Source: an uncultured Lachnospiraceae bacterium (GTDB lineage Bacteria > Bacillota > Clostridia > Lachnospirales > Lachnospiraceae). Taken from it: a stretch of 64,000 bases of DNA. The notes beneath the pieces were generated by a model. That model did not search any database, was not told the origin of the DNA, and saw nothing but the letters and a program-made list of their open reading frames with translations. Location of the stretch: contig CAZVYQ010000004.1 of the NCBI GenBank assembly GCA_964631375.1, positions 12,910-76,909 of the forward strand. Direction: 5' to 3'. This document shows, piece by piece, positions 40,720 to 62,485 of the stretch; the stretch's first letter is position 1; each line of letters starts with the position of its first letter. A program made the translations under genes and the position numbers.

Positions 40720-41509
40720 ATTACCATGTGAAATAATAAAGGATTTATTACCAAACTATATCGATGGATTGGAAAGTGATGTAACAAAAACAGCGGTGGA
40801 GGAACATCTGTCTTCATGTGAGAGCTGTAGTGAGATCTGCGATGCCATGAAGAAGGGATATGACCAGAAAGCAGATGCGGAGCCGGAACAGGCAGTAAAG
40901 GAAGAAAAGGTATTGTTTCGCAAGATCAACAGGAAATTAAACCGCAAGGTGAAAATCGTGATTGCTGTCGGAGTGGCTGTTCTGTTAATAGCGGTAGGGG
41001 CATTTGAACTGCTCTTTAATGCGGTGATCAGGGAGGTGCCAAGGCAGGAGGTCGAGGTAACTGCTGAGGTCTATCCGATGGCGGAGATCGCTGCATCTGA
41101 CCAGACAATGGATGGAGTGGGATATGGAATCAACAGTGGTGGAGATGAGGTATGTGTTGTCCGCACAGGAGATGAAGCACCGGGAGAAGATGAGCCGAGT
41201 TTTACCATCAGTATCCCTGATTTTCCAGAAAGCCACATAGCAGTAACTCCCGCACTCATGGAGGAGTATGATACTTTGACAATGATCAAATGGAAGTCCC
41301 CTTATTTTCTGCGGGCAATTCTATGGGATATCAGAGAGACGGATGGGCAACGGATCATGTATATCGAGCATTATAAAACAACAATTCTAAACAGCAAAGA
41401 AGCAAACAGTGGGAGCTATACAACCTCGATTGATTTCGGAACGCTTGACAAAATTGTATATCTGGAAAAGGACGGATCAGAGACGGTGTTGTGGGAAAAC
41501 AAGGATTAA
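40709..41509 (+). CDS. Anti-sigma factor (zf-HC2 type) with one TM helix and an extracytoplasmic domain
   Basis: HLSSCESCSEICDAM motif. TM helix VKIVIAVGVAVLLIAVGAF. It overlaps the sigma gene. Confidence 0.6.
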   Translation: MRIELPCEIIKDLLPNYIDGLESDVTKTAVEEHLSSCESCSEICDAMKKGYDQKADAEPEQAVKEEKVLFRKINRKLNRKVKIVIAVGVAVLLIAVGAFELLFNAVIREVPRQEVEVTAEVYPMAEIAASDQTMDGVGYGINSGGDEVCVVRTGDEAPGEDEPSFTISIPDFPESHIAVTPALMEEYDTLTMIKWKSPYFLRAILWDIRETDGQRIMYIEHYKTTILNSKEANSGSYTTSIDFGTLDKIVYLEKDGSETVLWENKD

Positions 41510-42698: not shown

Positions 42699-43685
42699 AT
42701 GAAAATTGGTATCTTAGGAGCAGGTGGAATCGCCGCCACCATGGCAGCTACATTACGTGGGATGAAGGCAGCCGGAGATGATGTAGAATTATATGCAATC
42801 GGAGCCAGAAACAAAGAACGTGCAGAGAAACTGGCAGTGGAGTATGGATTTGAAAAGTCCTATGGTTCTTATGAGGAATTGGTATCTGACCCTATGCTGG
42901 AGCTGGTGTATATTGCAACTCCACATTCACATCACTGTGAGCATACGAAGCTGTGCCTGGCACATGGCAAGCATGTGTTGTGTGAGAAGGCCTTTGCAGC
43001 CAATACAAAGCAGGCAGAAGAAATGATCAAGATGGCAGAGGAGAAGGGCTTGTTGTTGACAGAAGCTATCTGGACACGCTATATGCCGATGAGACAGACA
43101 ATTGATGATGTTGTGGCAAGTGGGGTGATTGGCAAGATTACTTCGCTGTCTGCTAATCTCGGATATGTAATCCATCAGGTGGAGCGTATTATGGACCCGG
43201 CTCTTGCAGGGGGTGCATTGTTGGATCTGACAGTTTATCCGATCAATTTCTCGCTGATGGTGTTTGGAGATAAAATTGCTCAGACAGATGCGATGTGTGT
43301 GAAGACACCAACCGGTGTGGATGGACAGGATACGGTTGTATTCACTTATGAGGACGGCAAAATGGCTAATCTGTATACTACAGTTTATGCGCAGACTGAC
43401 CGACGAGGAATTATCAACGGAGACAAAGGCTTTATTCAGATAGAAAACATCAATGATTATGAAGAAATCAATGTGTACGATCTGGAACGAAAGATCATAG
43501 CGACCTATCAGGCACCTGCACAGATCACCGGTTATGAGTATGAGGTGCGAGCAGCAGTCAAGGCAGTCAAGGAAGGAAAATTGGAGTGTGCAGAGATGCC
43601 GCATAGTGAGACGATCAAGGTTATGAAGATCATGGATGATATCAGAGCCGGATTTGGAATTGTTTTTCCGTTTGAAACGTGCTGA
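42699..43685 (+). CDS. Gfo/Idh/MocA-family NAD(P)-dependent oxidoreductase
   Basis: MKIGILGAGGIA Rossmann start and the EKA motif (VLCEKAF). Confidence 0.8.
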   Translation: MKIGILGAGGIAATMAATLRGMKAAGDDVELYAIGARNKERAEKLAVEYGFEKSYGSYEELVSDPMLELVYIATPHSHHCEHTKLCLAHGKHVLCEKAFAANTKQAEEMIKMAEEKGLLLTEAIWTRYMPMRQTIDDVVASGVIGKITSLSANLGYVIHQVERIMDPALAGGALLDLTVYPINFSLMVFGDKIAQTDAMCVKTPTGVDGQDTVVFTYEDGKMANLYTTVYAQTDRRGIINGDKGFIQIENINDYEEINVYDLERKIIATYQAPAQITGYEYEVRAAVKAVKEGKLECAEMPHSETIKVMKIMDDIRAGFGIVFPFETC

Positions 43686-43713
43686 GAAAGCCTATTTAGT
43701 TAAGGAGGGTACA

Positions 43714-45303
43714 ATGATACAGATCATTGTCGATCAGGTAGGTTATAAACCACAGGAAAGAAAAACTGCAGTCATCAGAGGAACCGTACCTCGGACATTT
43801 GCCGTAGAAGATATCAACAGCAAGAAGGTCATATATACAGGAGAGCTGTCAGAGCCGATTCAAAATGAACGTGCAGGCGAGACAGATTATATTGCAGATT
43901 TTTCAGATGTTAAAACTTCTGGAAGATACAGGGTACTTGCAGAGGGCTGCAGACCATCCATGGCTTTTTCAATCGGCGACAATATCTATGATGAAATGAC
44001 AAACAGTCTGTTACGATTTTTCTATCTGCAGCGATGCGGTGTAGAACTCTCTGTGCAGCTGGCAGGGGACTTTGCTCATCCGAGCTGTCATAATACGTTA
44101 GCCAGACTCTACGGAACCGATCAGAAAATGGATGTCAGAGGCGGCTGGCACGATGCAGGTGATTATGGACGGTATATTGTCGCTGCGGCGGTTGCGGTGG
44201 CGGATCTGCTGTTAGCTTATGAAAACAATCCGATGCTTTATGGACAAAACCTCAACATTCCTGAGAGTTCTGCTGCATTACCTGACATCCTGAGTGAGGT
44301 GCGTTTTGAACTGGAATGGATGCTCAAAATGCAGAATGAGCAAACTGGAGAAGTCTATCATAAGGTTACCTGTGCCGACTTTCCGGAGCTGCAGGTGATG
44401 CCCCAGGAGGAAAGAGAAGCGTTATACTTATGTCCACCATCGATCACTGCTACGGCTGATTTTGCTGCTGTGATGGCAATGGCGATGCGGTTTTATCTGG
44501 ATTATGATGAGATGTTTGCAAAAAGGTGCTTGAGGGCTTCCATCAAGGCATATGATGCAATGAAGCGTATGTTTCTGCCTGGTGGATTTGTAAATCCGAA
44601 GAATATTGTAACAGGAGAATATGGTGATCGTTCAGATGCAGACGAGCGTTACTGGGCGGCAGCACAGTTGTATCAGACAACCGGAGATGAAAGATATCAT
44701 ACAGATCTGATGAATTTATTGAAAAATGGTTTTATGCACGGATATGGCTGGATGGATGTAGGCTCTTTCGGAAACATTGCCTATCTGTCCACACATCAAT
44801 ATCCAACAGATGAGGTGCTCAAAAAGAACATGGAACATTCCATGGTGGAATTTGCCAATATGCTGACAGAGCGGATCAAGAGAGACAGCTATGGGTATTC
44901 ACTCCATGAGTTTGAATGGGGCTCCAATATGTATGTTGCCAACAATGCATGTATTTTGAATGATGCTTATAGGATTACCGGAGATGAAAAGTATCTGACG
45001 GCTGTCAGGGAACAGATCCATTATCTGCTCGGAAAGAATGCAAATGCAACCTGTTTTGTGACTGGCTTCGGAACACTTTCACCAAAGAATCCACATCACA
45101 GACCCTCAGCAGCAAGACATCGTGCTATGCGGGGGATGCTTGTCGGTGGACCGGATGAGGGCTTTCATGATGCCTGTACATTAGAAAAACTCAAGGATGT
45201 ACCACCTGCAAGGGTATATGCAGACGAGCAGGACAGTTATTCCACAAATGAAGTTACGATCTATTGGAATTCCGCATTGCTTTTGGCTCTTTCTACAATT
45301 TAG
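43714..45303 (+). CDS. Glycoside hydrolase family 9 enzyme with an N-terminal Ig-like domain and no signal peptide
   Basis: GGWHDAGDYGRY, HHRPS and NEVTIYWNSALL motifs. GGAGGG RBS before the ATG at 43714. Confidence 0.85.
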   Translation: MIQIIVDQVGYKPQERKTAVIRGTVPRTFAVEDINSKKVIYTGELSEPIQNERAGETDYIADFSDVKTSGRYRVLAEGCRPSMAFSIGDNIYDEMTNSLLRFFYLQRCGVELSVQLAGDFAHPSCHNTLARLYGTDQKMDVRGGWHDAGDYGRYIVAAAVAVADLLLAYENNPMLYGQNLNIPESSAALPDILSEVRFELEWMLKMQNEQTGEVYHKVTCADFPELQVMPQEEREALYLCPPSITATADFAAVMAMAMRFYLDYDEMFAKRCLRASIKAYDAMKRMFLPGGFVNPKNIVTGEYGDRSDADERYWAAAQLYQTTGDERYHTDLMNLLKNGFMHGYGWMDVGSFGNIAYLSTHQYPTDEVLKKNMEHSMVEFANMLTERIKRDSYGYSLHEFEWGSNMYVANNACILNDAYRITGDEKYLTAVREQIHYLLGKNANATCFVTGFGTLSPKNPHHRPSAARHRAMRGMLVGGPDEGFHDACTLEKLKDVPPARVYADEQDSYSTNEVTIYWNSALLLALSTI

Positions 45304-51120: not shown

Positions 51121-54100
51121 ATGCATAAAATCAGCGAAGATCTGTTTCAGAGTGCAATCGATCTGAATGAAACCATTGTATTCGAATATCACATCAAAGA
51201 GGATGTTATCAGCTTCTCGGAAAATGTTAAGAATCACATACCGCTTCCGCTGCGTGTCCCATGCTTTCTCGAGAAATTGGATGCAAGAGGAAAGATTCAT
51301 CAGGACGATGTCCAGAAGGCCATTGCCTTTTTCGGACTGCGGGAAGACATCAATAAAGTTCATATGGAGTATATCCGTTTTTTGGATTTCTCAGGAGAAT
51401 ATCTATGGTACCAGCTAAAGGGGCGTGTCATGAACGATGTGGCAGACGAGCCTGAATTGCTTTATGGTACCATTACTTATGTAGATGATGATGCAAAACA
51501 GGAGGCCGAACAGAAAAATGTAGAGCGTGATACCCTGACGCAGCTTCTGGGAGTCAATGCTTTTATAGCGGCAGTACAGGATTACATGTCAACAATACCG
51601 GAGGGTGTGATTCCCAACCTAATGGTAGTAGATGTAGATGATTTCAATTCATTGGTAGAGCTACATGGTGAGATGGTTGGTGACAGTGTGTTGGTTGAGG
51701 TTGCCAAGATACTGAGACGTGCATTCAGGGCAGCTGATATCATTGGCCGATTGGAGGGCGACCGTTTTGCTGTCTTTATGAAGGGAGTCAGGACACCGCA
51801 TATCCTTTTGGAACGAGCTGCATACATTTGCCAGACGGTCAAGGATGTATGGAATGATTATGAGACCGAATGTGGGATGTCGGTCAGTGTCGGAATAGCT
51901 TCTATGTTTACAGAGGAGGCTGATTTTCCAAAACTATATGAGAAGACACTTCTTGCACTCAGAGATGCCAAGTCCAGTGGGAAGGATACTTACATACTCT
52001 ATGCAAACGATATGGAACGGATGGATTCGACGGTCAATCCGATTTTGAGTTCCAAGGAGATGGAACTGGTTCGTAATATCTTAAATCCCATGTGTGCGTG
52101 GGCATATGCAGTAGATGAAAATTACCAGCTACTGTATCGAAACGACCTGTTACAGGATCGCATTGGAAATGAAGGCTGCGGGATCTGCTATGTGCAGAAT
52201 AAGGGCTATGACGAGCCATGTCCTGATTGTCCGTTGAAGAAGATACAACAAAAGGATACCTCTATAGATTCTGAGGTTTATTCACCTTCTCTTCGCACCA
52301 TGCTGCCGATGCGGACGACAAAGATCATGATGCGTAATGGAAAGCCTGTTTATCTGCTGGCATCCGTGCGAGAGGACATCGATGTTCAGATCGCAACGCT
52401 CAATGAGAGTACGGAACGTTTTCAAGAGGCGATCTATGCGATTCAGGATATCATCTGGGATGTTAATTTGCTCAAGAATACCTGTGTCAGGATCAAAGAA
52501 GATAATGTGATGTCGGTGGTAGAGTCACGTATCGACAATTATGAGAAACTGAGAGAGTTTTACAAGGAACGCGTTGTATACCCCGAAGATTTGGAGGAAT
52601 TCAATCAGGCAACCGACCCCGGATATTTGCGTGAGGCAGTTAAGCAAGGCAAACAGATCATCTGTAAGGAGGTCAGACTACATACCAGCGAGGATGAATA
52701 CTCTTGGTACGCGTTTTATACTGCTCTTGATACAGAGGACGCAAGTGGAGATATGCGTGTGTTTATCGTTGCATTAAATGTAAACGATTCCAAGAAACGA
52801 TATCTGTCCATGATCGAAACCAATATTAAATACGAGTTGATGATGCATCAGAGTTCCTTCCAGAAGGAGATGGCACTCAACAACGAACGCTATGAAAATG
52901 TCAACGAAATGACAGGTGTGCTTGTCTTTGAATACAATAAACTAAATGGTCTGTATTATATGTGTTCGATGTTTGATGAGGTGTTTAAGGTTGATAAGAA
53001 GATGCTGGATCACGAGTGGGCATTGATTGACAGCCTGACGTGCCACGTAGAGGATACAGAGGTATTCGAGAACTTTAAGACACGCTGCAAGGAAGAAAAT
53101 CAGACACAAAAGGTTACGGTTCGTCTATATAATAAGTATGGAACAGCCATCTGGTTTACTGTGATATTACAGGTGCTGAGGGGATTGAACAATGAACCGA
53201 TCCGATATCTGGGTACACTGCAAAATGTGAATGCAGAGATGGAAGTCAAGGTCGAGATGGAATACCGTGCCGATTATGATTCCCTGACGGGTCTATATAA
53301 CAGTGAAGCATTTTATCGTAGAGCATCAGAATTGATTCATCTGAATACGGACAGCAATTTTGTCATGATTTCAGTCGATATTGACAGATTCCGCATCATC
53401 AACGACCGGTTTGGTATTGATGCAGGAAACAAGAGTCTGCAGTGCCTTGGAAAAGCAATTAAGGATGTTGCACCAAAGGACTCGATCGCCAAACGTTATC
53501 AGGCAGACACCTTCAGTATTTTATTATGCTATGAAGGAGATCAGAACATACTGGATTATATGACACGACTGTCTGACAAGGCAGCAGAGTATTTTGAGAA
53601 GCAATGGAATGTATCACTGGCATTTGGGATCTATAAGATCGTCGATCACAATCTGCCCATTCGTCTGATGTGTGACAGAGCCAGACTGGTTAAAAAACAG
53701 ATCAAGGGAAGTACGTTGGCTAATTATGCTGTCTATGATGACAAGATACGGTTGCAGCAGCGAGAACAGGCAGAGATTGAGAGCGAAATGAATGCTGCCC
53801 TAATCAACGGAGAGTTCGAAATGTTCCTCCAGCCAAAGGTCGATGTCAACACCGGACAGATCAACGGAGCAGAAGCACTTGTCCGCTGGAGACATCCGAT
53901 TCGTGGGATCAGGGTACCGGCTACATTCTTGGATCTGTTTGAAAGCAATGGCTTTATCACCAAGCTGGATGTATATATATGGGAAGAAGCCTGCAAATGT
54001 ATCGCACAGCTTCGGGATATGGGTATTACAATGCCAATATCGGTAAATATTTCGCGGATTCATATCAACAATACCGATCTGGTAGAGACACTGCTAGGCT

Positions 54101-54540
54101 TAGTACATAAGTATGATCTGACACCGGATCTGCTTGAATTGGAAATAACAGAAAATCTTTTTATTGATGATGTAACGGCACTGTTTGAACAGATGAATAA
54201 ACTGAAGGCAGCAGGCTTTATCATTCAGATGGATGATTTTGGATCAGGCTACTCTTCTCTGAATATGTTAAGAAGGGCTCCGGTAGATGTGCTGAAGATA
54301 GACCGTTTTTTCCTGGACGAAATCATGGCAACCGAACGAGGCCGCATTATTGTGGAGACATCGGTAAGAATGGCAAAGCAACTGGAGCTGATAGTGGTTG
54401 CAGAGGGCGTAGAGACAAAGGATCAGTTGGATTTCCTAAAGGGAATCCATTGCGATACGGCACAGGGCTTCTATTTTTCAAAACCGGTTCCAAAAGACGA
54501 ATTCCTGACTCTGATTACCGAGGGAGATATTTCCGAATAA
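51121..54540 (+). CDS. Multidomain c-di-GMP protein: PAS-like, degenerate GGDEF, Cys4 motif, PAS-like repeats, degenerate GGDEF, EAL
   Basis: The first GGDEF-position motif is LEGDRF, with RAAD five residues upstream. The second is YQADTF. The EAL domain has EALVRW, VNISR, ELEITEN, DDFGSGYSSL, KIDRFF, EGVET and QGFYF. Confidence 0.8.
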   Translation: MHKISEDLFQSAIDLNETIVFEYHIKEDVISFSENVKNHIPLPLRVPCFLEKLDARGKIHQDDVQKAIAFFGLREDINKVHMEYIRFLDFSGEYLWYQLKGRVMNDVADEPELLYGTITYVDDDAKQEAEQKNVERDTLTQLLGVNAFIAAVQDYMSTIPEGVIPNLMVVDVDDFNSLVELHGEMVGDSVLVEVAKILRRAFRAADIIGRLEGDRFAVFMKGVRTPHILLERAAYICQTVKDVWNDYETECGMSVSVGIASMFTEEADFPKLYEKTLLALRDAKSSGKDTYILYANDMERMDSTVNPILSSKEMELVRNILNPMCAWAYAVDENYQLLYRNDLLQDRIGNEGCGICYVQNKGYDEPCPDCPLKKIQQKDTSIDSEVYSPSLRTMLPMRTTKIMMRNGKPVYLLASVREDIDVQIATLNESTERFQEAIYAIQDIIWDVNLLKNTCVRIKEDNVMSVVESRIDNYEKLREFYKERVVYPEDLEEFNQATDPGYLREAVKQGKQIICKEVRLHTSEDEYSWYAFYTALDTEDASGDMRVFIVALNVNDSKKRYLSMIETNIKYELMMHQSSFQKEMALNNERYENVNEMTGVLVFEYNKLNGLYYMCSMFDEVFKVDKKMLDHEWALIDSLTCHVEDTEVFENFKTRCKEENQTQKVTVRLYNKYGTAIWFTVILQVLRGLNNEPIRYLGTLQNVNAEMEVKVEMEYRADYDSLTGLYNSEAFYRRASELIHLNTDSNFVMISVDIDRFRIINDRFGIDAGNKSLQCLGKAIKDVAPKDSIAKRYQADTFSILLCYEGDQNILDYMTRLSDKAAEYFEKQWNVSLAFGIYKIVDHNLPIRLMCDRARLVKKQIKGSTLANYAVYDDKIRLQQREQAEIESEMNAALINGEFEMFLQPKVDVNTGQINGAEALVRWRHPIRGIRVPATFLDLFESNGFITKLDVYIWEEACKCIAQLRDMGITMPISVNISRIHINNTDLVETLLGLVHKYDLTPDLLELEITENLFIDDVTALFEQMNKLKAAGFIIQMDDFGSGYSSLNMLRRAPVDVLKIDRFFLDEIMATERGRIIVETSVRMAKQLELIVVAEGVETKDQLDFLKGIHCDTAQGFYFSKPVPKDEFLTLITEGDISE

Positions 54541-54609: not shown

Positions 54610-55242
54610 GTGCTTTTTTTGAAGGCTTTTAAGAAACCGCTGACGGCGGAGGAGGAGCACAAGTATGTGGAACTGTATCGTCAGGGAGACGAGGAAGCAA
54701 AAAATATCCTGATCGAACGGAATCTGAGACTTGTGGCACACATTGTCAAGAAGTACCAGTATTTAAAAGAAGATACGGAGGATCTAATCTCGATCGGGAC
54801 GATCGGACTGATCAAGGCCGTGACGACCTTTGATGCTAAGAAGGGCAGCAGATTGGCAACCTATGCGGCCAGATGTATTGATAATGAATTGCTGATGATG
54901 TTTCGGGGCAGGAAAAAGAGCAGTAGAGATATATCGATTTATGAACCGATTGGGACAGATAAGGAAGGCAATGAGATCAGTCTGCTCGATATCATCGAGA
55001 GTCCACCCGAAGATGTTGTTGAGCGAATGGAACTTGCGAGTAATATAGAAAAGTTGTATGATTATGTAGAGAATCATCTTACAGAAAGAGAACAGGAAAT
55101 AATAAAGCTCAGATACGGTCTTTTCCAGGGGGAGGAAAGTACGCAGAGGGAGATTGGTGCGAAGCTCGGAATATCCAGAAGCTATGTGTCACGAATCGAG
55201 AAAAAAGCTTTATGGAAGTTAAGAGAGGCGTTTACCAGATGA
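54610..55242 (+). CDS. sigK: Sporulation sigma factor SigK, without an N-terminal pro-sequence
   Basis: NLRLVAHIVKKY, DLISIGTIGLIKAV, LATYAARCIDNE and ISRSYVSRIEKKAL closely follow B. subtilis SigK. An in-frame TAA at 54592-54594 limits the N-terminus. Likely start is the TTG at 54619, 8 nt after GAGG. Confidence 0.85.
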   Translation: MLFLKAFKKPLTAEEEHKYVELYRQGDEEAKNILIERNLRLVAHIVKKYQYLKEDTEDLISIGTIGLIKAVTTFDAKKGSRLATYAARCIDNELLMMFRGRKKSSRDISIYEPIGTDKEGNEISLLDIIESPPEDVVERMELASNIEKLYDYVENHLTEREQEIIKLRYGLFQGEESTQREIGAKLGISRSYVSRIEKKALWKLREAFTR

Positions 55243-56474
55243 AGGACAGAAAAAAAGTCATTATGGGCATTGTGATCGGGCTGTTGTCGGTCGCAGTTGT
55301 ATGTGAGTCGTGTATGCTGTTTGGCTATCGAAACCGTTCGGTCACTGCTGCAAAGCAGATTGAGACTTTACAGGATGAGGTGGAAGCCACTCCACTGACG
55401 AATAAAATCAATTCGATCAGAGAACTGATGGATCATTATTATCTATATGATATCGACGAGACAGCCATACGTGAAGGCTTATTGAAGGGCATGCTTTGGG
55501 GGCTGGGCGATCTTTATTCCACTTATTATACAGCCGAAGAAATGGAAGATATTAATCAGGATACTACAGCACAGTATTCTGGGATTGGTGCGGTCTTGAC
55601 GCTGGACGCAGAGTATGGGATGTGTATGGTTGTAAAGACATACGAGGACAGTCCCAGTGCAGAGTCCGGTATGCTTGCAGGTGACTACATTACAGAGGTC
55701 AACGGTGAAGATGTGACAGCCATGGATCTTTCGACGATTGTCACACGGATCAAGGGCGAAGAAGGAACTGCGGTCAAGATCAAGATCTATCGAAAGAGTA
55801 TAGAAGATTATATTACACTGGATATGAAACGCCGTAAGGTAGAGATTCCTTCTGTTGCGGGGGAGATGTTGCCGGATCAGGTTGGTTACATTATGATCGA
55901 ATCCTGGGATATGCTGACGGCTTCACAATTTGTTGAGATCTTCAACGACCTTGGAAAACAGGGTATGCAGAGTTTGGTCATTGATGTCAGAAATAATCCC
56001 GGTGGGCTGGTTCAGGCGTCATGTGATGTGCTGGATCTGTTTGTCAAGGATGGTGGCAAGTTAGTATATACCGTAGATAAGGATGGAAATGAAAAGGACT
56101 ACATAGCTGATGACAAGACAGATCTGGATATTCCACTTGTAGTGTTGGTCAATGGTCATTCGGCATCCTCCTCAGAGATCTTTGCCGGTGGCATCAGAGA
56201 CTATCAGGCTGGGACGTTGGTAGGAGAAAAGACCTTCGGAAAAGGTATCGTTCAGAATATCATCGACATCGGAGATGGCGAAGCCATTAAAATGACAGTG
56301 GCAGAGTATTATCTGCCAAGCGGTGTCTGCATTCATGGAGAAGGTGTAGAGCCAAATGTTGAAGAAGTGTTGGATGAGGAGCTTGCAAGCAAAGCATCCT
56401 TTACACATGAAGAAGATAATCAATTACAAAGGGCATTGGAGATACTAAAGGAGAAGACACAGAACAATCAGTAA
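55239..56474 (+). CDS. S41-family carboxy-terminal processing peptidase (CtpA/CtpB-like) with a PDZ domain
   Basis: N-terminal TM helix, PDZ region, NPGGLV, VNGHSASSSEIFAG, GEKTFGKG. The ATG overlaps the sigK stop (ATGA). Confidence 0.85.
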   Translation: MKDRKKVIMGIVIGLLSVAVVCESCMLFGYRNRSVTAAKQIETLQDEVEATPLTNKINSIRELMDHYYLYDIDETAIREGLLKGMLWGLGDLYSTYYTAEEMEDINQDTTAQYSGIGAVLTLDAEYGMCMVVKTYEDSPSAESGMLAGDYITEVNGEDVTAMDLSTIVTRIKGEEGTAVKIKIYRKSIEDYITLDMKRRKVEIPSVAGEMLPDQVGYIMIESWDMLTASQFVEIFNDLGKQGMQSLVIDVRNNPGGLVQASCDVLDLFVKDGGKLVYTVDKDGNEKDYIADDKTDLDIPLVVLVNGHSASSSEIFAGGIRDYQAGTLVGEKTFGKGIVQNIIDIGDGEAIKMTVAEYYLPSGVCIHGEGVEPNVEEVLDEELASKASFTHEEDNQLQRALEILKEKTQNNQ

Positions 56475-56521: not shown

Positions 56522-57658
56522 ATGTTATTCATCAGACAGGAAGATCTAAAGATTGGAATGAGACTTGCAAAGCCGATTTATAACAAAAAAGGAGTGCTTT
56601 TGTACGACAGAAATTCGAAATTGACACAACAGGGCATCGAATCTGTCAAGAATTTTGGACTGATCGGAATCTACATACTGGAACCGGCAGAGCCACTGCC
56701 ACCGATGACACAGGATGACATTAACTTTGAACGATTCCAGACAATGAGTGTATTTTCGATTCAGGAGGAGCTACAGTACATTAGTGAAAAGCAAAAATAT
56801 CAAAAGCTCCCGACAATAGCAGATACCGTGATCAAGGAATATGGTCATTTGGAGCGCAAGATTAATTTTGTGCAGAATCTGCGGAGTAACGAAGACTATA
56901 TTTACAAGCATTCATTGAATGTTGCTATTTTATGTTCTCTGATAGCACATAAAATGAATCTGTATTATGAAGAGATGAAGGATACGATTGAGGCAGCAGT
57001 GGTGCATGATATCGGTAAGCTGAGTATCAACCCGGAGATCCTTAAAAAAGGCAGTCAATTAAGTGATACAGAGCGTGCCAATGCGAGACATTGTGAGTTT
57101 ATCGGTCTGGATCTGGTAGAACAGGCTTGCCGTTTGTTGTCGCCCAATATTAAGAGAGTGGCACATCAGGCCTATATGCAGTTGGATAATTTCAGGAGTG
57201 GGAAGTCGGTAGATATGGTAAAGACGATGAAAAGCTCCAAGGTTCTGATGGTAGCAGAGGTCTTTGATACCATGACAGCGATGAGCTATGGGGCTGAACC
57301 CTCCTCAGAGGTTGCTGCCCTGCGGTTTCTGATGGAGCATCCGGAGGCATTTGATGAGCAGGTGGTAGATGCACTGATCAATAGTGTGAATTTCCTGAGT
57401 GAGGGGTGTTGCGTCGAATTGTCAAACGGAGAAAAGGGACTGGTATTGTCAGCGAATGATGATGATATTCTAAGACCAATGATTCTTTTATTTAAGGACA
57501 ACTCCATCATTGATCTGCGGCAACAGCTGCTTTATAACGACCTTGAAATCAAGGATATCATGAAGACACTGGATAACAGGCATGTCATGAATGAAGAAGT
57601 GGCCAGACAATATATGACCGGTGAACAGGCTGATACGATTGATGCAACAGAGAATTAA
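56522..57658 (+). CDS. HD-GYP-like domain protein lacking the GYP motif
   Basis: HSLNVAIL...VHDIGK are retained. At the position of HHE..DG.GYP the sequence reads HQAYMQLDNFRSG. The N-terminal region is typical of HD-GYP proteins. Confidence 0.6.
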   Translation: MLFIRQEDLKIGMRLAKPIYNKKGVLLYDRNSKLTQQGIESVKNFGLIGIYILEPAEPLPPMTQDDINFERFQTMSVFSIQEELQYISEKQKYQKLPTIADTVIKEYGHLERKINFVQNLRSNEDYIYKHSLNVAILCSLIAHKMNLYYEEMKDTIEAAVVHDIGKLSINPEILKKGSQLSDTERANARHCEFIGLDLVEQACRLLSPNIKRVAHQAYMQLDNFRSGKSVDMVKTMKSSKVLMVAEVFDTMTAMSYGAEPSSEVAALRFLMEHPEAFDEQVVDALINSVNFLSEGCCVELSNGEKGLVLSANDDDILRPMILLFKDNSIIDLRQQLLYNDLEIKDIMKTLDNRHVMNEEVARQYMTGEQADTIDATEN

Positions 57659-57675
57659 GAGCCGGAGGCACGATC

Positions 57676-58758
57676 ATGATTGTTTTAAATGACCTGTTAA
57701 AGGAAGCAGGAGAGCATGGGGCATCGGATCTGCACCTTTCTGCAGGTGTACAGCCTAAGATGCGAATTGACGGAAAATTAAAGAATATGCCGTATGAGAA
57801 GCTGGCACCAAGCGATACGCTGGAGATCTTAGTTGGTGTGATGACGGTGGAACAGAGAGAGCGTTTTGAGGAACGCGGAGAAATGGATATTTCCTTTTCG
57901 ATTCCGAAACTCGGCAGATACAGAATGAGTGCCTATAAACAACGCGGCACAGTGGCTCTTGCAGTCAGGATTATGGGAAATGATTTCTCTATCGCAGAAA
58001 ATCTGGGCATACCAAAGGCATTTTTGGATCTGCATAATAGAAAGAGAGGTTTGATCCTGGTGACCGGTCCGGCAGGAAGTGGACTGTCCACCACGGTGGC
58101 TGCTTTGATTGACCGGATGAATCATATGGAGGAATCCGTGATCATCACTCTGGAGGATCCGATTGAATACATGCACCATCATCATAAAAGTATGGTGAAT
58201 CAGAGAGAAATCGGTCTGGATACGAAGAATTATGCGACGGCTTTACAATCAGTCCTGAGAGAAGATCCTGATGTGATTTATATCGGAACCGTACCGGACA
58301 TTGAGACGACCCGCATTGCTCTTGCTGCAGCAGAGGCAGGCTGTCTGGTGATTACAACCATGCATACAATCGGAGCGTATCAGACACTACAGCAGATGAT
58401 TCATGGATTTCCGGTACAGGAACAGGAACAGATCCGTCTCCAGATTGCAGGCATATTGACAGCAGTTGTTTCTCAACAGCTGGTTCCCGTCGCTGAGGGA
58501 CAGGGACGTATCCCTGCATTTGAAGTGATGCTTGCAGATGGCAGAGTTCGCGAGATGATCAGAGCCAATCGGCTCGAGGAACTTCCTGATCTCATAATGG
58601 AGAGCGAGGAAGGCGGCATGCGTTTGATGGATGATTCATTAATCGAACTATACAGAGAAGGAAAGATATCAGGTGGATATGCAGTTCGCTTTGCAGTTGA
58701 TAAGGAACGTGTACTTGAACAAACAGGAGATGACGGATGGATAAAGGATATGCAGTAG
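57676..58758 (+). CDS. PilT-like hexameric ATPase homolog with degenerate Walker A and Walker B (predicted pseudo-ATPase)
   Basis: It aligns end to end with PilT (ASDLHLSAG, ITLEDPIEY, REDPDV). Walker A is GPAGSGLST, with Leu codon CTG at 58084-58086 in place of Lys. GEMRD is replaced by GTVPD. Confidence 0.8.
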   Translation: MIVLNDLLKEAGEHGASDLHLSAGVQPKMRIDGKLKNMPYEKLAPSDTLEILVGVMTVEQRERFEERGEMDISFSIPKLGRYRMSAYKQRGTVALAVRIMGNDFSIAENLGIPKAFLDLHNRKRGLILVTGPAGSGLSTTVAALIDRMNHMEESVIITLEDPIEYMHHHHKSMVNQREIGLDTKNYATALQSVLREDPDVIYIGTVPDIETTRIALAAAEAGCLVITTMHTIGAYQTLQQMIHGFPVQEQEQIRLQIAGILTAVVSQQLVPVAEGQGRIPAFEVMLADGRVREMIRANRLEELPDLIMESEEGGMRLMDDSLIELYREGKISGGYAVRFAVDKERVLEQTGDDGWIKDMQ

Positions 58759-59849
58759 CGTTTAGCAATCAAATAAATGCGGCAGAGGCCATTGATGACA
58801 TATACATCCAACTGGGTGAAATCGAACCCCGTTTTCTGATGCTTTATTCGGATGTGGAGAATTTTGCATTTTATTCCGAAAAACTACATCAGAAGTATCA
58901 GGAAGCTGTGCTGATTGGTGCGACTACCTATCTTGCACTATCCTCGAGAGGATATTCCAAGACGGGACTGAGTGTACTTGCTGTGGCAGACGGCATTGAA
59001 TGCTCTGGTGGTGTGATTGAGGATGCAGTACGCTTTCCAGATAAATATCAGGATGTGATCAGAGAATGTGCAGGACATTTTCCGAATACAGACAACTGTT
59101 GCTGCTTTGAATTAACTACGGCTTTTGGAGACTGCGAAGAAATCGTACAGGATACCTTTCGCAGTGTATTGGAGGAAAAAGAGATTCCTGTCATTGGAGG
59201 TACAGCCGGAAATACGAGTGATACAAAGGAATCCTATGTATCCCTAAATGGTGAGGTGTATACGGGAGCATGTGTATTCGCGATTGTAAAAAATCTCAAC
59301 GGAGCCATTCGATTATATCGTGAAAATCTCTATCGGCCAACAGATCAATTTTTTGATGTGACAGATGTCGATTGTGAAGAACGAACAGTCTATGAATTTG
59401 ACGGGAAGCCAGCTGCAAAGGTTATGGCAAAAGCACTGGGAGTGACAGTGGAAGAACTGCCGGACTATCTGCCGTCACATCCGCTTGGCAGGATCGTCAA
59501 CGGTAATATTTACATTACAGATCATCATGCAGTCACATCGGATAGTGCATTGACTTATTTTGCACGTATTTATAATCACACGATGGTAGTACTGCTAACC
59601 CCCGAGGATCCGCAGACCGTATTAAGTGATACGATTGGGCAGATTCGAAAGGAAACAGAAAGTATCCGATTTATGTTTGTCGTGAATTGTCTGACGCGCT
59701 CTCGATTATTTGAACAAAACGGGAATTTGGAGCGATTTACAGATCGATTACGAGATGAATTGGGAGAGTATGCAGGAGTATCCGGCTATGGAGAACAGAT
59801 GAATTTTGAACATTTAAATCAGACGATGCTCATTGCAGTCTTTGAGTGA
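58737..59849 (+). CDS. Stand-alone FIST (FIST_N plus FIST_C) sensory domain protein
   Basis: FLMLYSD...AVLIGATT, PVIGGTAGN and the C-terminal YGEQ...HLNQTMLIAVFE match the FIST pattern. 22-nt overlap with the pilT-like gene. Confidence 0.65.
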   Translation: MDKGYAVAFSNQINAAEAIDDIYIQLGEIEPRFLMLYSDVENFAFYSEKLHQKYQEAVLIGATTYLALSSRGYSKTGLSVLAVADGIECSGGVIEDAVRFPDKYQDVIRECAGHFPNTDNCCCFELTTAFGDCEEIVQDTFRSVLEEKEIPVIGGTAGNTSDTKESYVSLNGEVYTGACVFAIVKNLNGAIRLYRENLYRPTDQFFDVTDVDCEERTVYEFDGKPAAKVMAKALGVTVEELPDYLPSHPLGRIVNGNIYITDHHAVTSDSALTYFARIYNHTMVVLLTPEDPQTVLSDTIGQIRKETESIRFMFVVNCLTRSRLFEQNGNLERFTDRLRDELGEYAGVSGYGEQMNFEHLNQTMLIAVFE

Positions 59850-59890
59850 TCTGAAATCATAACAAAGCAATGTTACGAGAGGATAAAGCC

Positions 59891-62485
59891 ATGTCACGAT
59901 ATAATAATGGTCTGATCTATACCAACGACAAATGCATTGGATGTAATAAATGTATCTTTGAGTGTCCGGTCATCGGTGCCAATGTCTCCGTTTATCAGAA
60001 TGGGATGAACCGAATCATGGTCAATGAGAAGAAGTGCATTCATTGTGGACATTGCCTCAATACCTGTACACATGATGCACGGGATTATCATGACGATACA
60101 GAACTTTTTTTTGAGGATTTGTCAGCAGGAAACCAGATTGCACTTGCGATTGCACCTTCTTTTTATATCAATTACCCACAGCAGGCCTCTCATATTTTGG
60201 GCTATCTTCGATCACTGGGTGTGGGAAAGATCTATGATGTGGGATTTGGAGCGGATATCGCCACCTATTGCCATATCAAATACATCGAACAGTCTGATGA
60301 AGATAATGGTCAAGGCAAAGCGTATTTGGCCAGAACCTGTCCGGCTCTTGTCAATTATATGGAGTGCTGCGAACCAGAGATGGTGGATCTTTTGATCCCG
60401 ATCCATTCACCGGTGATTTGTCTGGGTATCTATGTCCATCAATACCTGAAAGAGAAAACAGATATTGCGTTTATCAGTCCGTGTATTGCCAAAAAGGATG
60501 AAATCGATGCTGCAACAACGGGTGGGAACATTCGCTATAATGTAACCTACAAGCATCTGATGAAAAGACTAAAGGACATTGATCTAAGTGATTATCAAGC
60601 AGAAAGTGACCTCAAACCAATTGGTCTCGGAAACTTGTTTCCGATGACGGGAGGGTTTAAGGAGTATATTGAGCATTTTATTCCCAGAGAAAAGCTTGTC
60701 TTACGTATGGAGGGGTTTCCTGCAAAGCATGAGCAGCTGTGTGATTATTGTAACAACATCAATCAATCAGACGAAAAACCATGTCTGATTGATATTTTGA
60801 GCTGCAGTCATGGCTGTCTGACAGGACCGGCATCAGAGCCGGATAATTTCCATCTGGTCAATATGCTGTCCGGCTACAGAAAGACACGCAAGGAAACACA
60901 GGAAGGGTTTCTGCAGGATACGGATACAATGGCTGAACGCAGAGAGAGGCTGGAGAATTATTTTTCCGAGCTTGATCTGTCTGACTTTCATTGTGGATAT
61001 ACAGACCGATATCATCAGTCGTTTCACATTCCGGAAAGTACCTATGATGAGATATTTAATACCATGTATAAATATACCGAGGCAGATCGAAATATCAATT
61101 GCCATTCCTGCGGTTATTCTTCCTGCCGTGATATGGTGACGGCTATCGCATACGGCTATAATTGCATGGAAAATTGTGTACATTATACCAAGGATGAGGT
61201 GATGCGACTATACTACACAGACCCTCTGACCGAGATTGCAAACAAGGCGGCATTTATTCGTGACACGACAGAATTATTGCAGAACAATGAGAATACGCAA
61301 TATGTCATCTGTACCATAGACATCAATAATTTTACGGCCGTCAACGATATGTATGGATTCGAGAGGGGTAATCAGGTTCTTCGCTTTTTGGCACGCCGAC
61401 TGCATCAATACTCTCAAGCAGACGGAACCTGTGCCAGACTTGATACCGATCATTTCGCATTATGTGTTCCTTATGAGAAGAGCAGACTGGTGTTTTTTGA
61501 AGAAAAGCCATACTATGATGCGAATGATCTCAACGTTGATTTTCCGATCACGGTGCGTTTTGGGCTGTATCTGGTAGAGGATTCCTATGAGCAGGTTGAC
61601 AAGATGCTGGATCTGTCTGCGATTGCAATGAATCAAAATACAGATAAGAGCAGAAATACATACTTTTTCTATAATGATGATATACGAAAGGAACTTCTCG
61701 AGGAAGCAAGTATCGCCCGTCATATGCGTGAGGCAATCAAAAACGAGGAATTCCAGACTTATCTTCAGCCACAGTATAATCATGCGACCGGAGAACTGGT
61801 AGGAGCAGAGGTATTATGCCGATGGATCAGATCAGACGGTAGTATGATTTCGCCTGATGCTTTTATTCATATCTTTGAGAAGAACGGTTTCATTAGAGAA
61901 TTGGATTATTATATGTGGGACAAGACTTTTCAGCTTGTGCGTAAATGGCTGGATGAGGGAAAGGACCCAGTACCGGTCGCAGTGAATATATCACGAATCA
62001 GTCTGAAGGATGTCAATCTCTGTGAGACCTTCCAACAGTTGAGCGATCGATATCAAATTGAACCGGAAAGAGTGCATCTTGAGATCACAGAAGGTGCATA
62101 TATGCAAAATCAGAGGCAGATCATAGAAATCATAGAAAAATTGCAAAAATGTGGATTTATTATTGCAATGGATGATTTTGGAAGTGGCTATTCCTCTCTG
62201 AACACACTGAAAAGTGTCCCAATTGACATTTTAAAGTTGGATATGGGATTTCTGCGTGGTAAGGACGATCAGAATAAGGGTAGCAGCATCATCAGCTTTG
62301 TGATCAGAATGGCAGAGGCTTTGGGGCTTGCAACCATTGCAGAGGGCGTGGAAACCATTGATCAGGCTGACTTCTTAAAGAGCATCGGATGTGATATGAT
62401 ACAGGGCTTTTTATATGCCAGACCTATGCCGGTGGAACAGTACGAGAAAATATTATTCAATGGAAATAATAGGATTGACAAATGA
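59891..62485 (+). CDS. 2x[4Fe-4S] ferredoxin plus [FeFe]-hydrogenase-like (H-cluster-type) domain plus Cx2Cx4C motif, fused to a degenerate GGDEF and an EAL
   Basis: CIGCNKCIFECP and CIHCGHCLNTC. H-cluster-like motifs RTCP, SPCIAKKDE (PCxxKxxE) and SCSHGCLTG (CxxGCxxG). CHSCGYSSC. The GGDEF position reads LDTDHF. The EAL has EVLCRW, VNISR, EITEG, DDFGSGYSSL, EGVET and QGFLY. Confidence 0.75.
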   Translation: MSRYNNGLIYTNDKCIGCNKCIFECPVIGANVSVYQNGMNRIMVNEKKCIHCGHCLNTCTHDARDYHDDTELFFEDLSAGNQIALAIAPSFYINYPQQASHILGYLRSLGVGKIYDVGFGADIATYCHIKYIEQSDEDNGQGKAYLARTCPALVNYMECCEPEMVDLLIPIHSPVICLGIYVHQYLKEKTDIAFISPCIAKKDEIDAATTGGNIRYNVTYKHLMKRLKDIDLSDYQAESDLKPIGLGNLFPMTGGFKEYIEHFIPREKLVLRMEGFPAKHEQLCDYCNNINQSDEKPCLIDILSCSHGCLTGPASEPDNFHLVNMLSGYRKTRKETQEGFLQDTDTMAERRERLENYFSELDLSDFHCGYTDRYHQSFHIPESTYDEIFNTMYKYTEADRNINCHSCGYSSCRDMVTAIAYGYNCMENCVHYTKDEVMRLYYTDPLTEIANKAAFIRDTTELLQNNENTQYVICTIDINNFTAVNDMYGFERGNQVLRFLARRLHQYSQADGTCARLDTDHFALCVPYEKSRLVFFEEKPYYDANDLNVDFPITVRFGLYLVEDSYEQVDKMLDLSAIAMNQNTDKSRNTYFFYNDDIRKELLEEASIARHMREAIKNEEFQTYLQPQYNHATGELVGAEVLCRWIRSDGSMISPDAFIHIFEKNGFIRELDYYMWDKTFQLVRKWLDEGKDPVPVAVNISRISLKDVNLCETFQQLSDRYQIEPERVHLEITEGAYMQNQRQIIEIIEKLQKCGFIIAMDDFGSGYSSLNTLKSVPIDILKLDMGFLRGKDDQNKGSSIISFVIRMAEALGLATIAEGVETIDQADFLKSIGCDMIQGFLYARPMPVEQYEKILFNGNNRIDK

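What the first reader, a model, noticed from the sequence alone, without database searches (positions are those of the whole stretch)
57676..58758. PilT homolog with Walker A Lys-to-Leu and Walker B Glu-to-Thr: a predicted pseudo-ATPase
The 360-aa protein is collinear with twitching-motility ATPase PilT:
- N-terminal ASDLHLSAG
- Asp box ITLEDPIEY
- REDPDV
- His box ..TMHT

The catalytic positions are changed:
- Walker A reads GPAGSGLST (nt 58066-58092), where PilT has GPTGSGKST. The Leu codon is CTG at 58084-58086.
- The Walker B/catalytic segment reads DPDVIYIGTVPD, where PilT has DPDIILVGEMRD. Thr codon ACC at 58288-58290 replaces the catalytic Glu.
- The first His-box histidine (TGHLV) is Cys (AGCLV).

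Three independent substitutions at catalytic positions, inside an otherwise well-preserved and intact ORF, argue for a retained non-enzymatic role (scaffold, nucleotide or c-di-GMP sensor) rather than decay.
Basis: partly seen in the sequence, partly recalled or inferred. Interest (0 to 1): 0.7.

Follow-up and report, generated by a model that had tools for sequence, protein, structure and literature searches.

The report
Catalytically dead PilT paired with HD protein
This gene encodes a pilus-retraction motor (PilT) that has lost its ATP-splitting residues yet is kept by selection in a group of uncultured Lachnospiraceae, always next to the same HD-domain partner gene, so it probably has a non-motor, possibly signalling, role.

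Summary
ORF 57676-58758(+) is a full-length PilT-family protein. It has Walker A Lys->Leu, Walker B catalytic Glu->Thr and first His-box His->Cys.

It is not a decaying gene:
- Nine 90%-identity clusters (60-100% identical) share the same three changes, with synonymous codon variation at those positions.
- pN is 0.11-0.25 against saturated pS.

1. It is the positional ortholog, not a spare paralog, of the canonical Lachnospiraceae PilT. It sits in the conserved order hemN-(sigK)-HD protein-PilT-comM-dprA.
2. The upstream HD-GYP-fold protein, itself lacking the HHE and GYP motifs, is a tightly linked partner of canonical and degenerate PilTs alike.
3. It is a well-supported subclade (100% bootstrap) beside a larger degenerate HD-linked PilT clade of about 40 clusters. 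That clade keeps the Lys but loses the Glu and both His. The sister grouping has 72% NJ support.

Degenerate loci have no adjacent pilB/pilC cluster, and six of eight lineages carry a PAS-GGDEF-EAL gene. The degenerate proteins evolve several-fold faster than canonical PilT, mainly in the ATPase domain.

Most likely it is a pseudo-ATPase scaffold working with the HD partner, plausibly in c-di-GMP signalling. The ligand and the target are unknown. It is a new variant of a known kind, of moderate interest.

The parts
57676..58758 (+). Pseudo-PilT ORF, 360 aa (PilT/PilU family fold, catalytic residues lost)
   Evidence: Searches give the ORF. TIGR01420 pilT_fam scores 396 bits against a cutoff of 319. 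PDB PilT matches at 1e-90. The AF2 model (pLDDT 80) matches PilT4, PilT2 and PilU structures at E about 1e-38.
57663..57667 (+). GGAGG ribosome-binding site 8 nt upstream of the ATG
   Evidence: Sequence read.
58066..58092 (+). Degenerate Walker A GPAGSGLST. The Leu137 codon CTG at 58084-86 replaces the Lys, and Ala133 replaces the Thr.
   Evidence: In the clade the position is L, I or V.
58144..58170 (+). Asp box ITLEDPIEY, retained (E160 and E164 invariant)
58264..58299 (+). Degenerate Walker B DPDVIYIGTVPD. The Thr205 codon ACC at 58288-90 replaces the catalytic Glu. Pro207 replaces the Arg of GEMRD.
   Evidence: Thr is invariant in the clade and is encoded by ACC, ACG or ACA.
58330..58368 (+). 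His box AEAGCLVITTMHT. Cys223 (TGT at 58342-44) replaces the first His. The second His (H230) is retained.
58543..58566 (+). RVREMIRA, the counterpart of the PilT AIRNLIRE motif (AVRNLIRE in canonical Lachnospiraceae PilT). Only the xVRxxIRx pattern is kept.
   Evidence: Alignments.
56522..57658 (+). Conserved partner: a 378-aa HD-domain protein with an HD-GYP fold. H, HD and D are kept; the HHE and GYP motifs are lost. Its stop codon lies 17 nt before the pseudo-PilT start.
   Evidence: Pfam HD and HD_5. PDB alignment to V-cGAP3 and PmGH. The AF2 model matches HD-GYP structures, including the inactive Bd1817. It is adjacent to PilT in all 12 HD-PilT lineages examined.
51121..54540 (+). PAS-GGDEF-GGDEF-EAL protein, 1139 aa. 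Both GGDEF motifs are degenerate (EGDRF, QADTF) and the EAL, DDFGSG and EGVE motifs are intact. It is a likely c-di-GMP phosphodiesterase and is conserved upstream of the degenerate HD-PilT pairs.
   Evidence: It is present in L002, L004, L007, L010, L011, L015 and L027.
54610..55242 (+). SigK-type sporulation sigma factor, apparently without a pro-sequence
   Evidence: TIGR02846 scores 304.5 bits against a cutoff of 298.65 and aligns from profile position 25.
55212..56474 (+). CtpB-like S41 C-terminal processing peptidase (PDZ + S41)
58737..59849 (+). FIST (NosP-like) sensor protein. Its start overlaps the pseudo-PilT 3' end by 22 nt. It is a lineage-specific insertion.
   Evidence: Pfam FIST and FIST_C. 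NosP model scores 139 bits, below its cutoff of 450. Absent from L004, L007, L010 and L011.
59870..62485 (+). Fusion of 2x[4Fe-4S], a [FeFe]-hydrogenase-like domain, a degenerate GGDEF and an EAL (EVL) domain, 871 aa. It is a likely redox- or gas-sensing c-di-GMP phosphodiesterase and a lineage-specific insertion.

Best explanation
The gene encodes a catalytically dead descendant of the Lachnospiraceae pilus-retraction ATPase PilT, kept by purifying selection.

Shown:
- It has the PilT fold but lacks the Walker A Lys, the catalytic Glu and the first His-box His. It also lacks T133, R207, D239, R240, D243 and H248.
- It occupies the genomic slot of the canonical PilT.
- It is tightly linked to, and possibly translationally coupled with, a conserved HD-GYP-fold protein that has lost the HHE and GYP motifs.
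- Its N-terminal domain stays as constrained as in canonical PilT, including the invariant RYR and R90/R98 arginines. The ATPase domain is relaxed.
- No pilB, pilC, pilD, pilin or pilM gene is nearby.
- EAL-type c-di-GMP phosphodiesterase genes flank the pair.

Inferred: the protein no longer hydrolyses ATP. It still folds and probably still oligomerises. It acts as a non-enzymatic scaffold or adaptor together with the HD partner. The pair originally controlled pilus retraction. In this clade it has been re-used as a signalling module, plausibly in the c-di-GMP network set by the neighbouring EAL proteins. Its output is probably no longer forceful pilus retraction.
For: - Fold and family.
- Loss of catalytic residues, fixed across the clade. 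Synonymous codon variation at those positions.
- Purifying selection: pN is 0.11-0.25 against pS of 0.68-0.82 (saturated). dN/dS is about 0.05-0.09 where it can be computed, similar to the neighbouring HD and CtpB genes.
- Positional orthology and the HD-PilT pairing: 0-17 nt between the genes or overlapping stop/start in most lineages, about 30 nt in L020 and 87 nt in L018. This holds for canonical loci (L016, L018, L020), the window clade and a second degenerate clade (L022, L026, L027).
- Adjacent T4P cluster: present in 3 of 3 HD-linked canonical lineages and in 0 of 8 degenerate lineages.
- Faster evolution: canonical PilT pairs are 90-93% identical where their HD partners are 62-80% identical. 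Degenerate pairs are 60-83% identical where their HD partners are 65-86% identical.
- Where the relaxation lies: in the ATPase domain, not the N-terminal domain.
- Partner fold: HD-GYP-like and motif-degenerate.
- Neighbours: EAL-intact, GGDEF-degenerate proteins.
- Transcription: no + strand terminator-like site between 50800 and 63400.
- Precedents: enzyme-independent HD-GYP/GGDEF/PilZ complexes contact PilT and PilU in Xanthomonas (PMC3749722). ATPase-dead PilT retains a function in Vibrio (PMC6821130).
Against: - No biochemical data exist.
- Nucleotide binding without hydrolysis cannot be excluded, because the P-loop glycines, the Ser/Thr, the Asp box, the second His and the arginines are kept.
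- No c-di-GMP-binding motif was identified in either the pseudo-PilT or the HD protein, and the HD protein lacks GYP. The c-di-GMP link rests on gene neighbourhood only.
- I could not see whole genomes. A T4P system and a second, active PilT may exist elsewhere. The closest canonical PilT (P0011) also has no adjacent T4P cluster, so a missing adjacent cluster does not prove the system is lost.
- dS is saturated, so the dN/dS values are rough.
- The HD-PilT interaction is inferred from gene order, not shown.
Confidence: 0.5

Rival explanations
1. It is still a pilus component. The dead PilT ring docks at the base of a type IV or competence pilus encoded elsewhere in the genome. There it could act as a brake or plug that blocks retraction, giving static adhesive pili. 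Alternatively it could act as an adaptor that recruits another ATPase, under control of the HD partner.
For: - It descends from the genuine PilT and sits beside comM and dprA, which are transformation genes.
- The N-terminal domain and the xVRxxIRx remnant of AIRNLIRE are conserved.
- In V. cholerae and A. baylyi, Walker A/B-dead PilT still supports PilU-driven retraction (PMC6821130).
- PilT can also promote pilus extension (PMC9815625).
- The closest canonical PilT locus also lacks an adjacent T4P cluster.
Against: - No pilB, pilC, pilD, pilin or pilM gene occurs in the 64-kb window or in any degenerate locus.
- The C-terminal region, which is highly conserved in canonical PilT, is the least conserved part here.
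- No PilU-like second ATPase was seen.
Confidence: 0.28
2. It is a nucleotide-binding switch or a residual enzyme. The pocket still binds ATP, ADP or another nucleotide (such as c-di-GMP or GTP). The protein would signal by ligand-dependent conformational change, or hydrolyse slowly using non-canonical residues.
For: - The GxxGxGxST glycines, the Ser/Thr, Asp-box E160/E164, D197/D199, H230 and arginines R81, R83, R90 and R98 are invariant in the clade.
- Thr205 and Cys223 are invariant rather than random, which suggests a remodelled pocket rather than an abandoned one.
Against: - Position 137 varies among L, I and V, and residues 206-209 are variable. That pattern looks like relaxed filling of the pocket.
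- R207, R240 and H248 are lost.
- From general knowledge of P-loop NTPases, loss of the Walker A Lys normally cripples nucleotide binding.
Confidence: 0.15
3. It is a decaying pseudogene or an assembly or sequencing artefact.
For: - Catalytic residues are lost.
- The evolutionary rate is raised compared with canonical PilT.
- A sister lineage (L015) has lost PilT entirely.
Against: - The ORF is intact in all nine clusters and on 17 contigs carrying the identical protein.
- pN is far below pS.
- The substitutions are fixed, with synonymous variation at their codons.
- A ribosome-binding site is present and the gene spacing is operon-like.
Confidence: 0.04

Closest known systems
Canonical PilT retraction ATPase (for example Aquifex aeolicus 2GSZ/2EWV, Geobacter PilT4 6OJX, and Lachnospiraceae PilT such as P0071)
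   Same: Same two-domain fold and length. It is 36-43% identical to solved PilTs and 51-56% identical to Lachnospiraceae PilT. It occupies the same genomic slot (HD-PilT-comM-dprA). The Asp box, the second His and the N-domain arginines are retained.
   Different: The Walker A Lys, the catalytic Glu, the first His, the GEMRD Arg and several other invariant ATPase-domain residues are replaced. The AIRNLIRE motif is only partly kept. It evolves several-fold faster. No T4P genes are adjacent.
Engineered Walker A/B-dead PilT of Vibrio cholerae and Acinetobacter baylyi (Chlebek et al. 2019, PMC6821130)
   Same: A PilT without ATPase activity that still has a function. In those species it licenses PilU-driven retraction.
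   Different: Those are laboratory point mutants in systems that have PilU. This protein is a natural, fixed and further diverged form, with no PilU or T4P genes seen nearby.
Larger degenerate HD-linked PilT clade of Lachnospiraceae (P0135 and P0397-P0436, including isolate genome GCA_900168235.1). To my searches it is undescribed in the literature and is annotated only as 'PilT/PilU family ATPase'.
   Same: Same slot downstream of the same HD protein, often with the PAS-GGDEF-EAL gene upstream. The catalytic Glu and the His box are lost. Branches are long. It groups as sister to the window clade in an NJ tree (72% bootstrap).
   Different: That clade keeps the Walker A Lys (GPSGSGKST). Its Glu position is hypervariable, and its His box reads TG[R/K]L..MYT. 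The window clade has L/I/V, an invariant Thr and an invariant Cys, and keeps the second His.
Xanthomonas RpfG (HD-GYP)-GGDEF-PilZ complex acting on PilT and PilU (Ryan et al. 2012, reviewed in PMC3749722)
   Same: An HD-GYP-family protein and GGDEF-family proteins are functionally tied to PilT, through protein-protein contacts that do not depend on enzymatic activity.
   Different: In Xanthomonas PilT is active, the link runs through a PilZ adaptor, and the GYP motif is required. Here the HD protein lacks GYP, is encoded directly next to PilT, and PilT is dead.
Bd1817, the degenerate HD-GYP protein of Bdellovibrio (PDB 3TM8/3TMB); comparison for the partner protein
   Same: HD-GYP fold with a non-consensus motif. 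It is among the best structural matches to the partner model.
   Different: Sequence identity is only 15-16%. The partner has additional conserved N- and C-terminal beta-rich domains, and its function is unknown.
c-di-GMP-binding secretion-family ATPases: MshE, PilB2 and PilF through the MshEN domain (PMC4624772, PMC11731258)
   Same: T2SSE-family proteins that take part in c-di-GMP control of pili.
   Different: Binding there is through an N-terminal MshEN domain that is absent here, and those proteins are active extension ATPases.

Membership tests
PilT/PilU family (TIGR01420; T2SSE PF00437) | Sequence profile score above the curated cutoff | tested here: met
   TIGR01420 scores 396.1 bits against a cutoff of 319.1, over profile positions 2-341 of 343. 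PF00437 gives 2.6e-35.
PilT/PilU family (TIGR01420; T2SSE PF00437) | Two-domain PilT fold (N-terminal PAS-like domain plus RecA-like C-terminal domain) | tested here: met
   The AF2 model (pLDDT 80) matches PilT4, PilT2 and PilU structures in Foldseek at E about 1e-38 with TM 0.66-0.70.
Functional PilT retraction ATPase | Walker A GxxGxGK[ST] with the Lys | tested here: not met
   The motif reads GPAGSGLST. The position is L, I or V across the clade and K in 110 of 110 canonical relatives.
Functional PilT retraction ATPase | Walker B with the catalytic Glu (GEMRD) | tested here: not met
   The motif reads IGTVPD. Thr is invariant in the clade, and the Arg of GEMRD is also lost.
Functional PilT retraction ATPase | Asp box (ExPxE) | tested here: met
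   TLEDPIEY is present, with E160 and E164 invariant.
Functional PilT retraction ATPase | His box with two His (TGHLV...LHT) | tested here: not met
   The first His is Cys and is invariant in the clade. The second His (H230) is retained.
Functional PilT retraction ATPase | AIRNLIRE motif | tested here: inconclusive
   RVREMIRA stands opposite the canonical AVRNLIRE. The V/I, R, I and R positions are kept and four of eight positions are changed.
Functional PilT retraction ATPase | Encoded with, or in a genome that has, type IV pilus machinery (PilB, PilC, pilins, PilD) | tested here: inconclusive
   None of these genes is in the 64-kb window or in about 20 kb around eight degenerate loci. Whole genomes could not be inspected.
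Functional PilT retraction ATPase | ATP hydrolysis and hexamer formation | not testable with these tools
   This needs purified protein. No multimer prediction was available.
HD-GYP c-di-GMP phosphodiesterase (partner protein, 56522-57658) | HD-GYP fold and the HD_5 profile | tested here: met
   PF13487 scores 29.4 bits against a cutoff of 27.2. Foldseek matches PmGH 4MCW, DvhD 9RBZ, Bd1817 and PA4781.
HD-GYP c-di-GMP phosphodiesterase (partner protein, 56522-57658) | Full metal-ligand set (H, HD, H, HHE, D) and the GYP motif | tested here: not met
   H130, H162, D163 and D249 are kept. HHExxDGxGYP is replaced by (H/Q/K)QAYxQLDNFxxG, and this holds across 29 homologs.

The most novel reading that the evidence does not exclude
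The HD protein and the degenerate PilT form a previously unrecognised signalling module that is widespread in Lachnospiraceae. A retired pilus-retraction motor has been exapted, at least once and possibly twice, into a non-catalytic ring scaffold. It acts independently of any pilus, with a motif-degenerate HD-GYP protein, to relay c-di-GMP status set by the adjacent EAL phosphodiesterases. In the window lineage those inputs include NosP-like and hydrogenase-like sensors. The target could be flagellar motility, competence or sporulation.
Probability: 0.3. Interest if true: 0.7.

Novelty: new variant of a known kind. Interest (0 to 1): 0.55.

Why it matters
PilT is treated as an obligate ATP-driven motor, and annotation pipelines name these proteins 'PilT/PilU family type 4a pilus ATPase'.

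- A naturally fixed, selectively maintained PilT without catalytic residues would be a clean natural experiment on the ATPase-independent functions of PilT. Candidate functions are adaptor, platform binding and signalling. So far these have only been glimpsed with engineered mutants.
- The conserved pairing with an HD-GYP-fold protein points to an unstudied regulator of PilT in Lachnospiraceae, a major gut and rumen family. This applies to canonical PilT as well.
- Presence of a 'pilT' gene should not be taken as evidence of twitching or pilus retraction in these genomes.

Tried and rejected
- **Sequencing or assembly error: rejected.** The identical protein is on 17 contigs, and orthologs use different codons for the same replacement residues.
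- **Pseudogene decay: rejected**, on the dN/dS values and intact ORFs.
- **'Extra paralog' reading: rejected.** Synteny shows positional orthology.
- **FIST and hydrogenase-like GGDEF-EAL genes as core partners: rejected.** They are absent from L004, L007, L010 and L011.
- **Representative-library profile search: little gained.** Its top hits were tandem PilT-PilT fusions. The clade itself was hidden, probably because it clusters at 50% identity under canonical representatives. The search did reveal P0135.
- **Genome-collection scan: limited.** It returned only two or three orthologous MAGs, and no whole-genome view was possible. Whether T4P genes or a second PilT exist elsewhere stays open.
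- **Literature searches:** searches for a natural pseudo-ATPase PilT, or for an HD-GYP/PilT pair in Lachnospiraceae, found nothing specific.
- **Complex prediction:** no multimer or complex structure prediction was available to test the HD-PilT contact.
- **P0009:** it looked like an intermediate form, but it is best explained as a chimeric 1.2-kb contig.
- **Terminator and promoter scan:** it gave counts no higher than in shuffled sequence. It shows only that there is no obvious + strand terminator within the gene row.
Full report
**1. Observation**

The window carries an uninterrupted 360-codon ORF at 57676-58758(+). A GGAGG ribosome-binding site lies 8 nt before the ATG. The protein scores above the curated cutoff of the PilT/PilU family model: TIGR01420 gives 396 bits against a cutoff of 319, and Pfam T2SSE gives 2.6e-35. 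It aligns end to end with solved PilT structures at E = 1e-90.

In those alignments three query residues stand opposite catalytic positions. Query GPAGSGLST faces GPTGSGKST, IGTVPD faces VGEMRD, and AGCLV faces TGHLV. The Cys codon TGT is at 58342-44. An AlphaFold2 model (pLDDT 80) matches PilT4, PilT2 and PilU structures at E about 1e-38.

**2. Not an error and not decay**

The identical protein is encoded on 17 independently assembled contigs. A search of 5.8 billion proteins returned nine 90%-identity clusters at 60-100% identity: P0001-P0008 and P0010. All have L, I or V at the Walker A Lys, Thr at the catalytic Glu and Cys at the first His. From P0011 downward (56% identity or less) every hit is a canonical Lachnospiraceae PilT with GPTGSGKST, GEMRD and TGHLV.

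Orthologs use different synonymous codons for the replacement residues: CTG, TTG and CTT for Leu, with ATT (Ile) in one lineage, and ACC, ACG and ACA for Thr. Nonsynonymous divergence is 0.11-0.25. Synonymous sites are saturated (pS 0.68-0.82). Where it can be computed, dN/dS is about 0.05-0.09, the same range as the neighbouring HD and CtpB genes.

In an NJ tree the clade is monophyletic in 100 of 100 bootstrap replicates. Members come from uncultured Lachnospiraceae and Clostridia MAGs.

**3. What it is: the positional ortholog of PilT**

Gene neighbourhoods changed the picture. In canonical Lachnospiraceae loci (L016/17, L018/19, L020/21) the order is:

rpsT-gpr-spoIIP-lepA-hemN-sigK-like sigma-HD protein-PilT(351 aa, canonical)-comM-dprA-pilB-pilC-pilin-pilD-pilM.

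In the window and its orthologs (L001-L011) the order is:

lepA-hemN-PAS-GGDEF-EAL-sigK (absent in L004)-CtpB-like peptidase-HD protein-pseudo-PilT-(variable insert)-comM-dprA-topA-codY-flagellar genes.

The pseudo-PilT therefore occupies the slot of the canonical PilT. It is not an extra paralog.

The FIST (NosP-like) gene overlaps the pseudo-PilT stop codon. It and the following Fe-S/[FeFe]-hydrogenase-like GGDEF-EAL gene are found only in the window lineage. L010 and L011 carry a Wzy_C membrane protein there, and L004 and L007 carry nothing.

**4. The conserved partner**

The upstream 378-aa HD protein is adjacent to PilT in all 12 HD-PilT lineages examined. In most lineages the spacing is 0-17 nt or the stop and start codons overlap; it is about 30 nt in L020 and 87 nt in L018. 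Its sequence and its predicted structure match HD-GYP domains, including PmGH, DvhD, PA4781 and the inactive Bd1817.

It keeps only the minimal H...HD...D residues. The HHE metal ligands and the GYP motif are replaced in all 29 homologs aligned, including the partners of canonical PilT. It also has very strongly conserved N- and C-terminal beta-rich segments of unknown function. I infer, but have not shown, that it is a PilT-binding regulator in this family.

**5. How the pseudo-PilT differs from canonical PilT**

Other residues that are invariant in 110 canonical relatives are also replaced: T133, R207 of GEMRD, D239, R240, D243 and H248. Most of the stretch from 286 to 312, around the AIRNLIRE motif, is changed as well.

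Constraint has shifted between the domains. The N-terminal domain is as conserved within the clade as in canonical PilT (51% against 45% invariant columns). The ATPase core is relaxed (46% against 74%). Residues 236-262 show the largest drop (22% against 81%).

Rates relative to the partner gene make the same point. Canonical PilT pairs are 90-93% identical where their HD partners are 62-80% identical. Pseudo-PilT pairs are 60-83% identical where their HD partners are 65-86% identical.

Several residues are retained and invariant: the P-loop glycines and Ser/Thr, Asp-box E160 and E164, H230, and arginines R81, R83, R90 and R98.

**6. A larger family of degenerate, HD-linked PilTs**

The representative search turned up P0135. 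A follow-up search found about 40 further clusters (P0397-P0436) from Lachnospiraceae. These keep the Walker A Lys. Their catalytic-Glu position is hypervariable (A, T, S, N, Q, K, R, H, G or E), and their His box reads TG[R/K]L..MYT.

In all three lineages whose context was examined, these proteins also lie directly downstream of the HD protein (L022/23, L026, L027). L027 comes from an isolate genome, GCA_900168235.1. It shows hemN-PAS-GGDEF-EAL-HD-PilT*-comM-dprA-topA-codY-flagellar genes.

In an NJ tree this clade has 100% bootstrap support. It groups with the window clade at 72%. Both sit on long branches next to a tight canonical clade (100%).

None of the eight degenerate lineages has pilB, pilC, pilD, pilin or pilM genes in the fetched DNA. 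All three HD-linked canonical lineages do. The rest of the 64-kb window has no pilus genes either. One related lineage (L015) has the GGDEF-EAL, sigK, CtpB and HD genes but no PilT at all.

**7. Mechanism**

Shown:
- The catalytic residues are lost.
- The gene is under purifying selection.
- It is the positional ortholog of PilT.
- It is obligately adjacent to the HD protein.
- No T4P genes are adjacent.
- The neighbouring proteins have intact EAL and degenerate GGDEF motifs.
- No + strand terminator-like site occurs within the gene row.

Inferred:
- The protein cannot hydrolyse ATP.
- It keeps the PilT architecture and probably the ring.
- It works as a non-enzymatic partner of the HD protein, most likely within c-di-GMP signalling.
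- Its output is probably no longer forceful pilus retraction.

Three precedents are relevant. In Xanthomonas, HD-GYP/GGDEF/PilZ complexes act on PilT and PilU independently of enzymatic activity (PMC3749722). In Vibrio and Acinetobacter, Walker-dead PilT remains functional as a prerequisite for PilU (PMC6821130). In V. cholerae, a NosP-to-c-di-GMP phosphodiesterase pathway controls MSHA pilus retraction (PMC8851539; title and abstract only).

The main rival is that the protein is still a pilus-base brake or adaptor for a T4P system encoded elsewhere. The closest canonical PilT also lacks an adjacent T4P cluster, so absence nearby is not proof of absence.

A remodelled nucleotide- or ligand-binding switch is also possible, given the invariant Thr205 and Cys223 and the retained pocket residues. 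No c-di-GMP-binding motif was identified.

**8. Comparison and novelty**

The protein is a member of the PilT/PilU sequence family. It fails three of the defining catalytic features of a functional PilT ATPase, so it should be described as a PilT-derived pseudo-ATPase.

Full-text searches found no description of a natural catalytically dead PilT or of the HD-PilT pairing in Lachnospiraceae. Databases name these proteins 'PilT/PilU family type 4a pilus ATPase'.

Degenerate PilT-like domains as such are not unique. The N-terminal halves of tandem PilT-PilT fusions are also degenerate. I therefore rate this a new variant of a known kind, with moderate interest (0.55). The most valuable leads are the widespread HD-PilT module and the loss of catalytic residues in HD-linked PilTs, which may have happened more than once.

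Noticed in passing
Related loci L022/L023, L026, L027; proteins P0135 and P0397-P0436: A second and much larger clade of degenerate Lachnospiraceae PilTs, about 40 clusters. The Walker A Lys is kept, the catalytic-Glu position is hypervariable, and the His box reads TG[R/K]L..MYT. In the three lineages examined they lie directly downstream of the same HD protein. One is in an isolate genome (GCA_900168235.1), which would allow genetics.
   Followed up: partly
window 56522-57658 and homologs P0277-P0396: The HD-GYP-fold partner lacks the HHE and GYP motifs in every homolog examined, including the partners of canonical PilT. It has extremely conserved N-terminal (MLFxKxxDLKxGMRLAKPIYNKKGVLLY) and C-terminal (GCCVELSNGEKGLVL...LEIKDIMKTLDNR) segments of unknown function.
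   Followed up: partly
window 59870-62485: An 871-aa fusion of two 4Fe-4S motifs, a [FeFe]-hydrogenase large-subunit-like domain, a putative Fe-S motif, a degenerate GGDEF and an EAL (EVL) domain. It may be a redox-, H2- or gas-sensing c-di-GMP phosphodiesterase. A FIST/NosP-like gene (58737-59849) precedes it and overlaps the pseudo-PilT stop codon by 22 nt.
   Followed up: partly
window 51121-54540: A 1139-aa protein with PAS, two GGDEF domains with degenerate motifs (EGDRF, QADTF) and an intact EAL domain. It is conserved upstream of the degenerate HD-PilT pairs (six of eight lineages) and of the PilT-less L015 locus. It is absent from the canonical HD-PilT loci.
   Followed up: partly
window 54610-55242 and 55212-56474: A SigK-type sporulation sigma factor that aligns to the SigK model only from profile position 25, so it has no obvious pro-sequence. 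It overlaps the start of a CtpB-like S41/PDZ peptidase. CtpB is part of the pro-SigK processing checkpoint in Bacillus, so the pairing is curious if no pro-sequence exists.
   Followed up: no
protein P0009 (1168-bp ENA contig): The N-terminal half is identical in type to the pseudo-PilT (GPAGSGLST). The C-terminal half is a canonical PilT (GEMRD, TGHLV). This is probably a chimeric assembly. If so, a canonical PilT co-occurs in that sample.
   Followed up: no
proteins P0121-P0134, P0141 (representative library): Many 660-1020-aa tandem PilT-PilT fusion proteins. In several (P0131, P0133, P0134, P0141) one or both halves have degenerate Walker A, Walker B or His-box residues.
   Followed up: no
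locus L015 (ENA ERZ23499919 scaffold_9): It has the same GGDEF-EAL, sigK, CtpB and HD row but no PilT. A 1320-aa SpaA-type sortase pilin and a sortase follow the HD gene instead.
   Followed up: no
window 41658-42644 and 40180-41509: A NYN-domain plus OST-HTH/LOTUS protein, and an ECF sigma factor with a zf-HC2 anti-sigma pair, lie upstream. A GH9 cellulase (43636-45303) suggests a fibre-degrading lifestyle.
   Followed up: no
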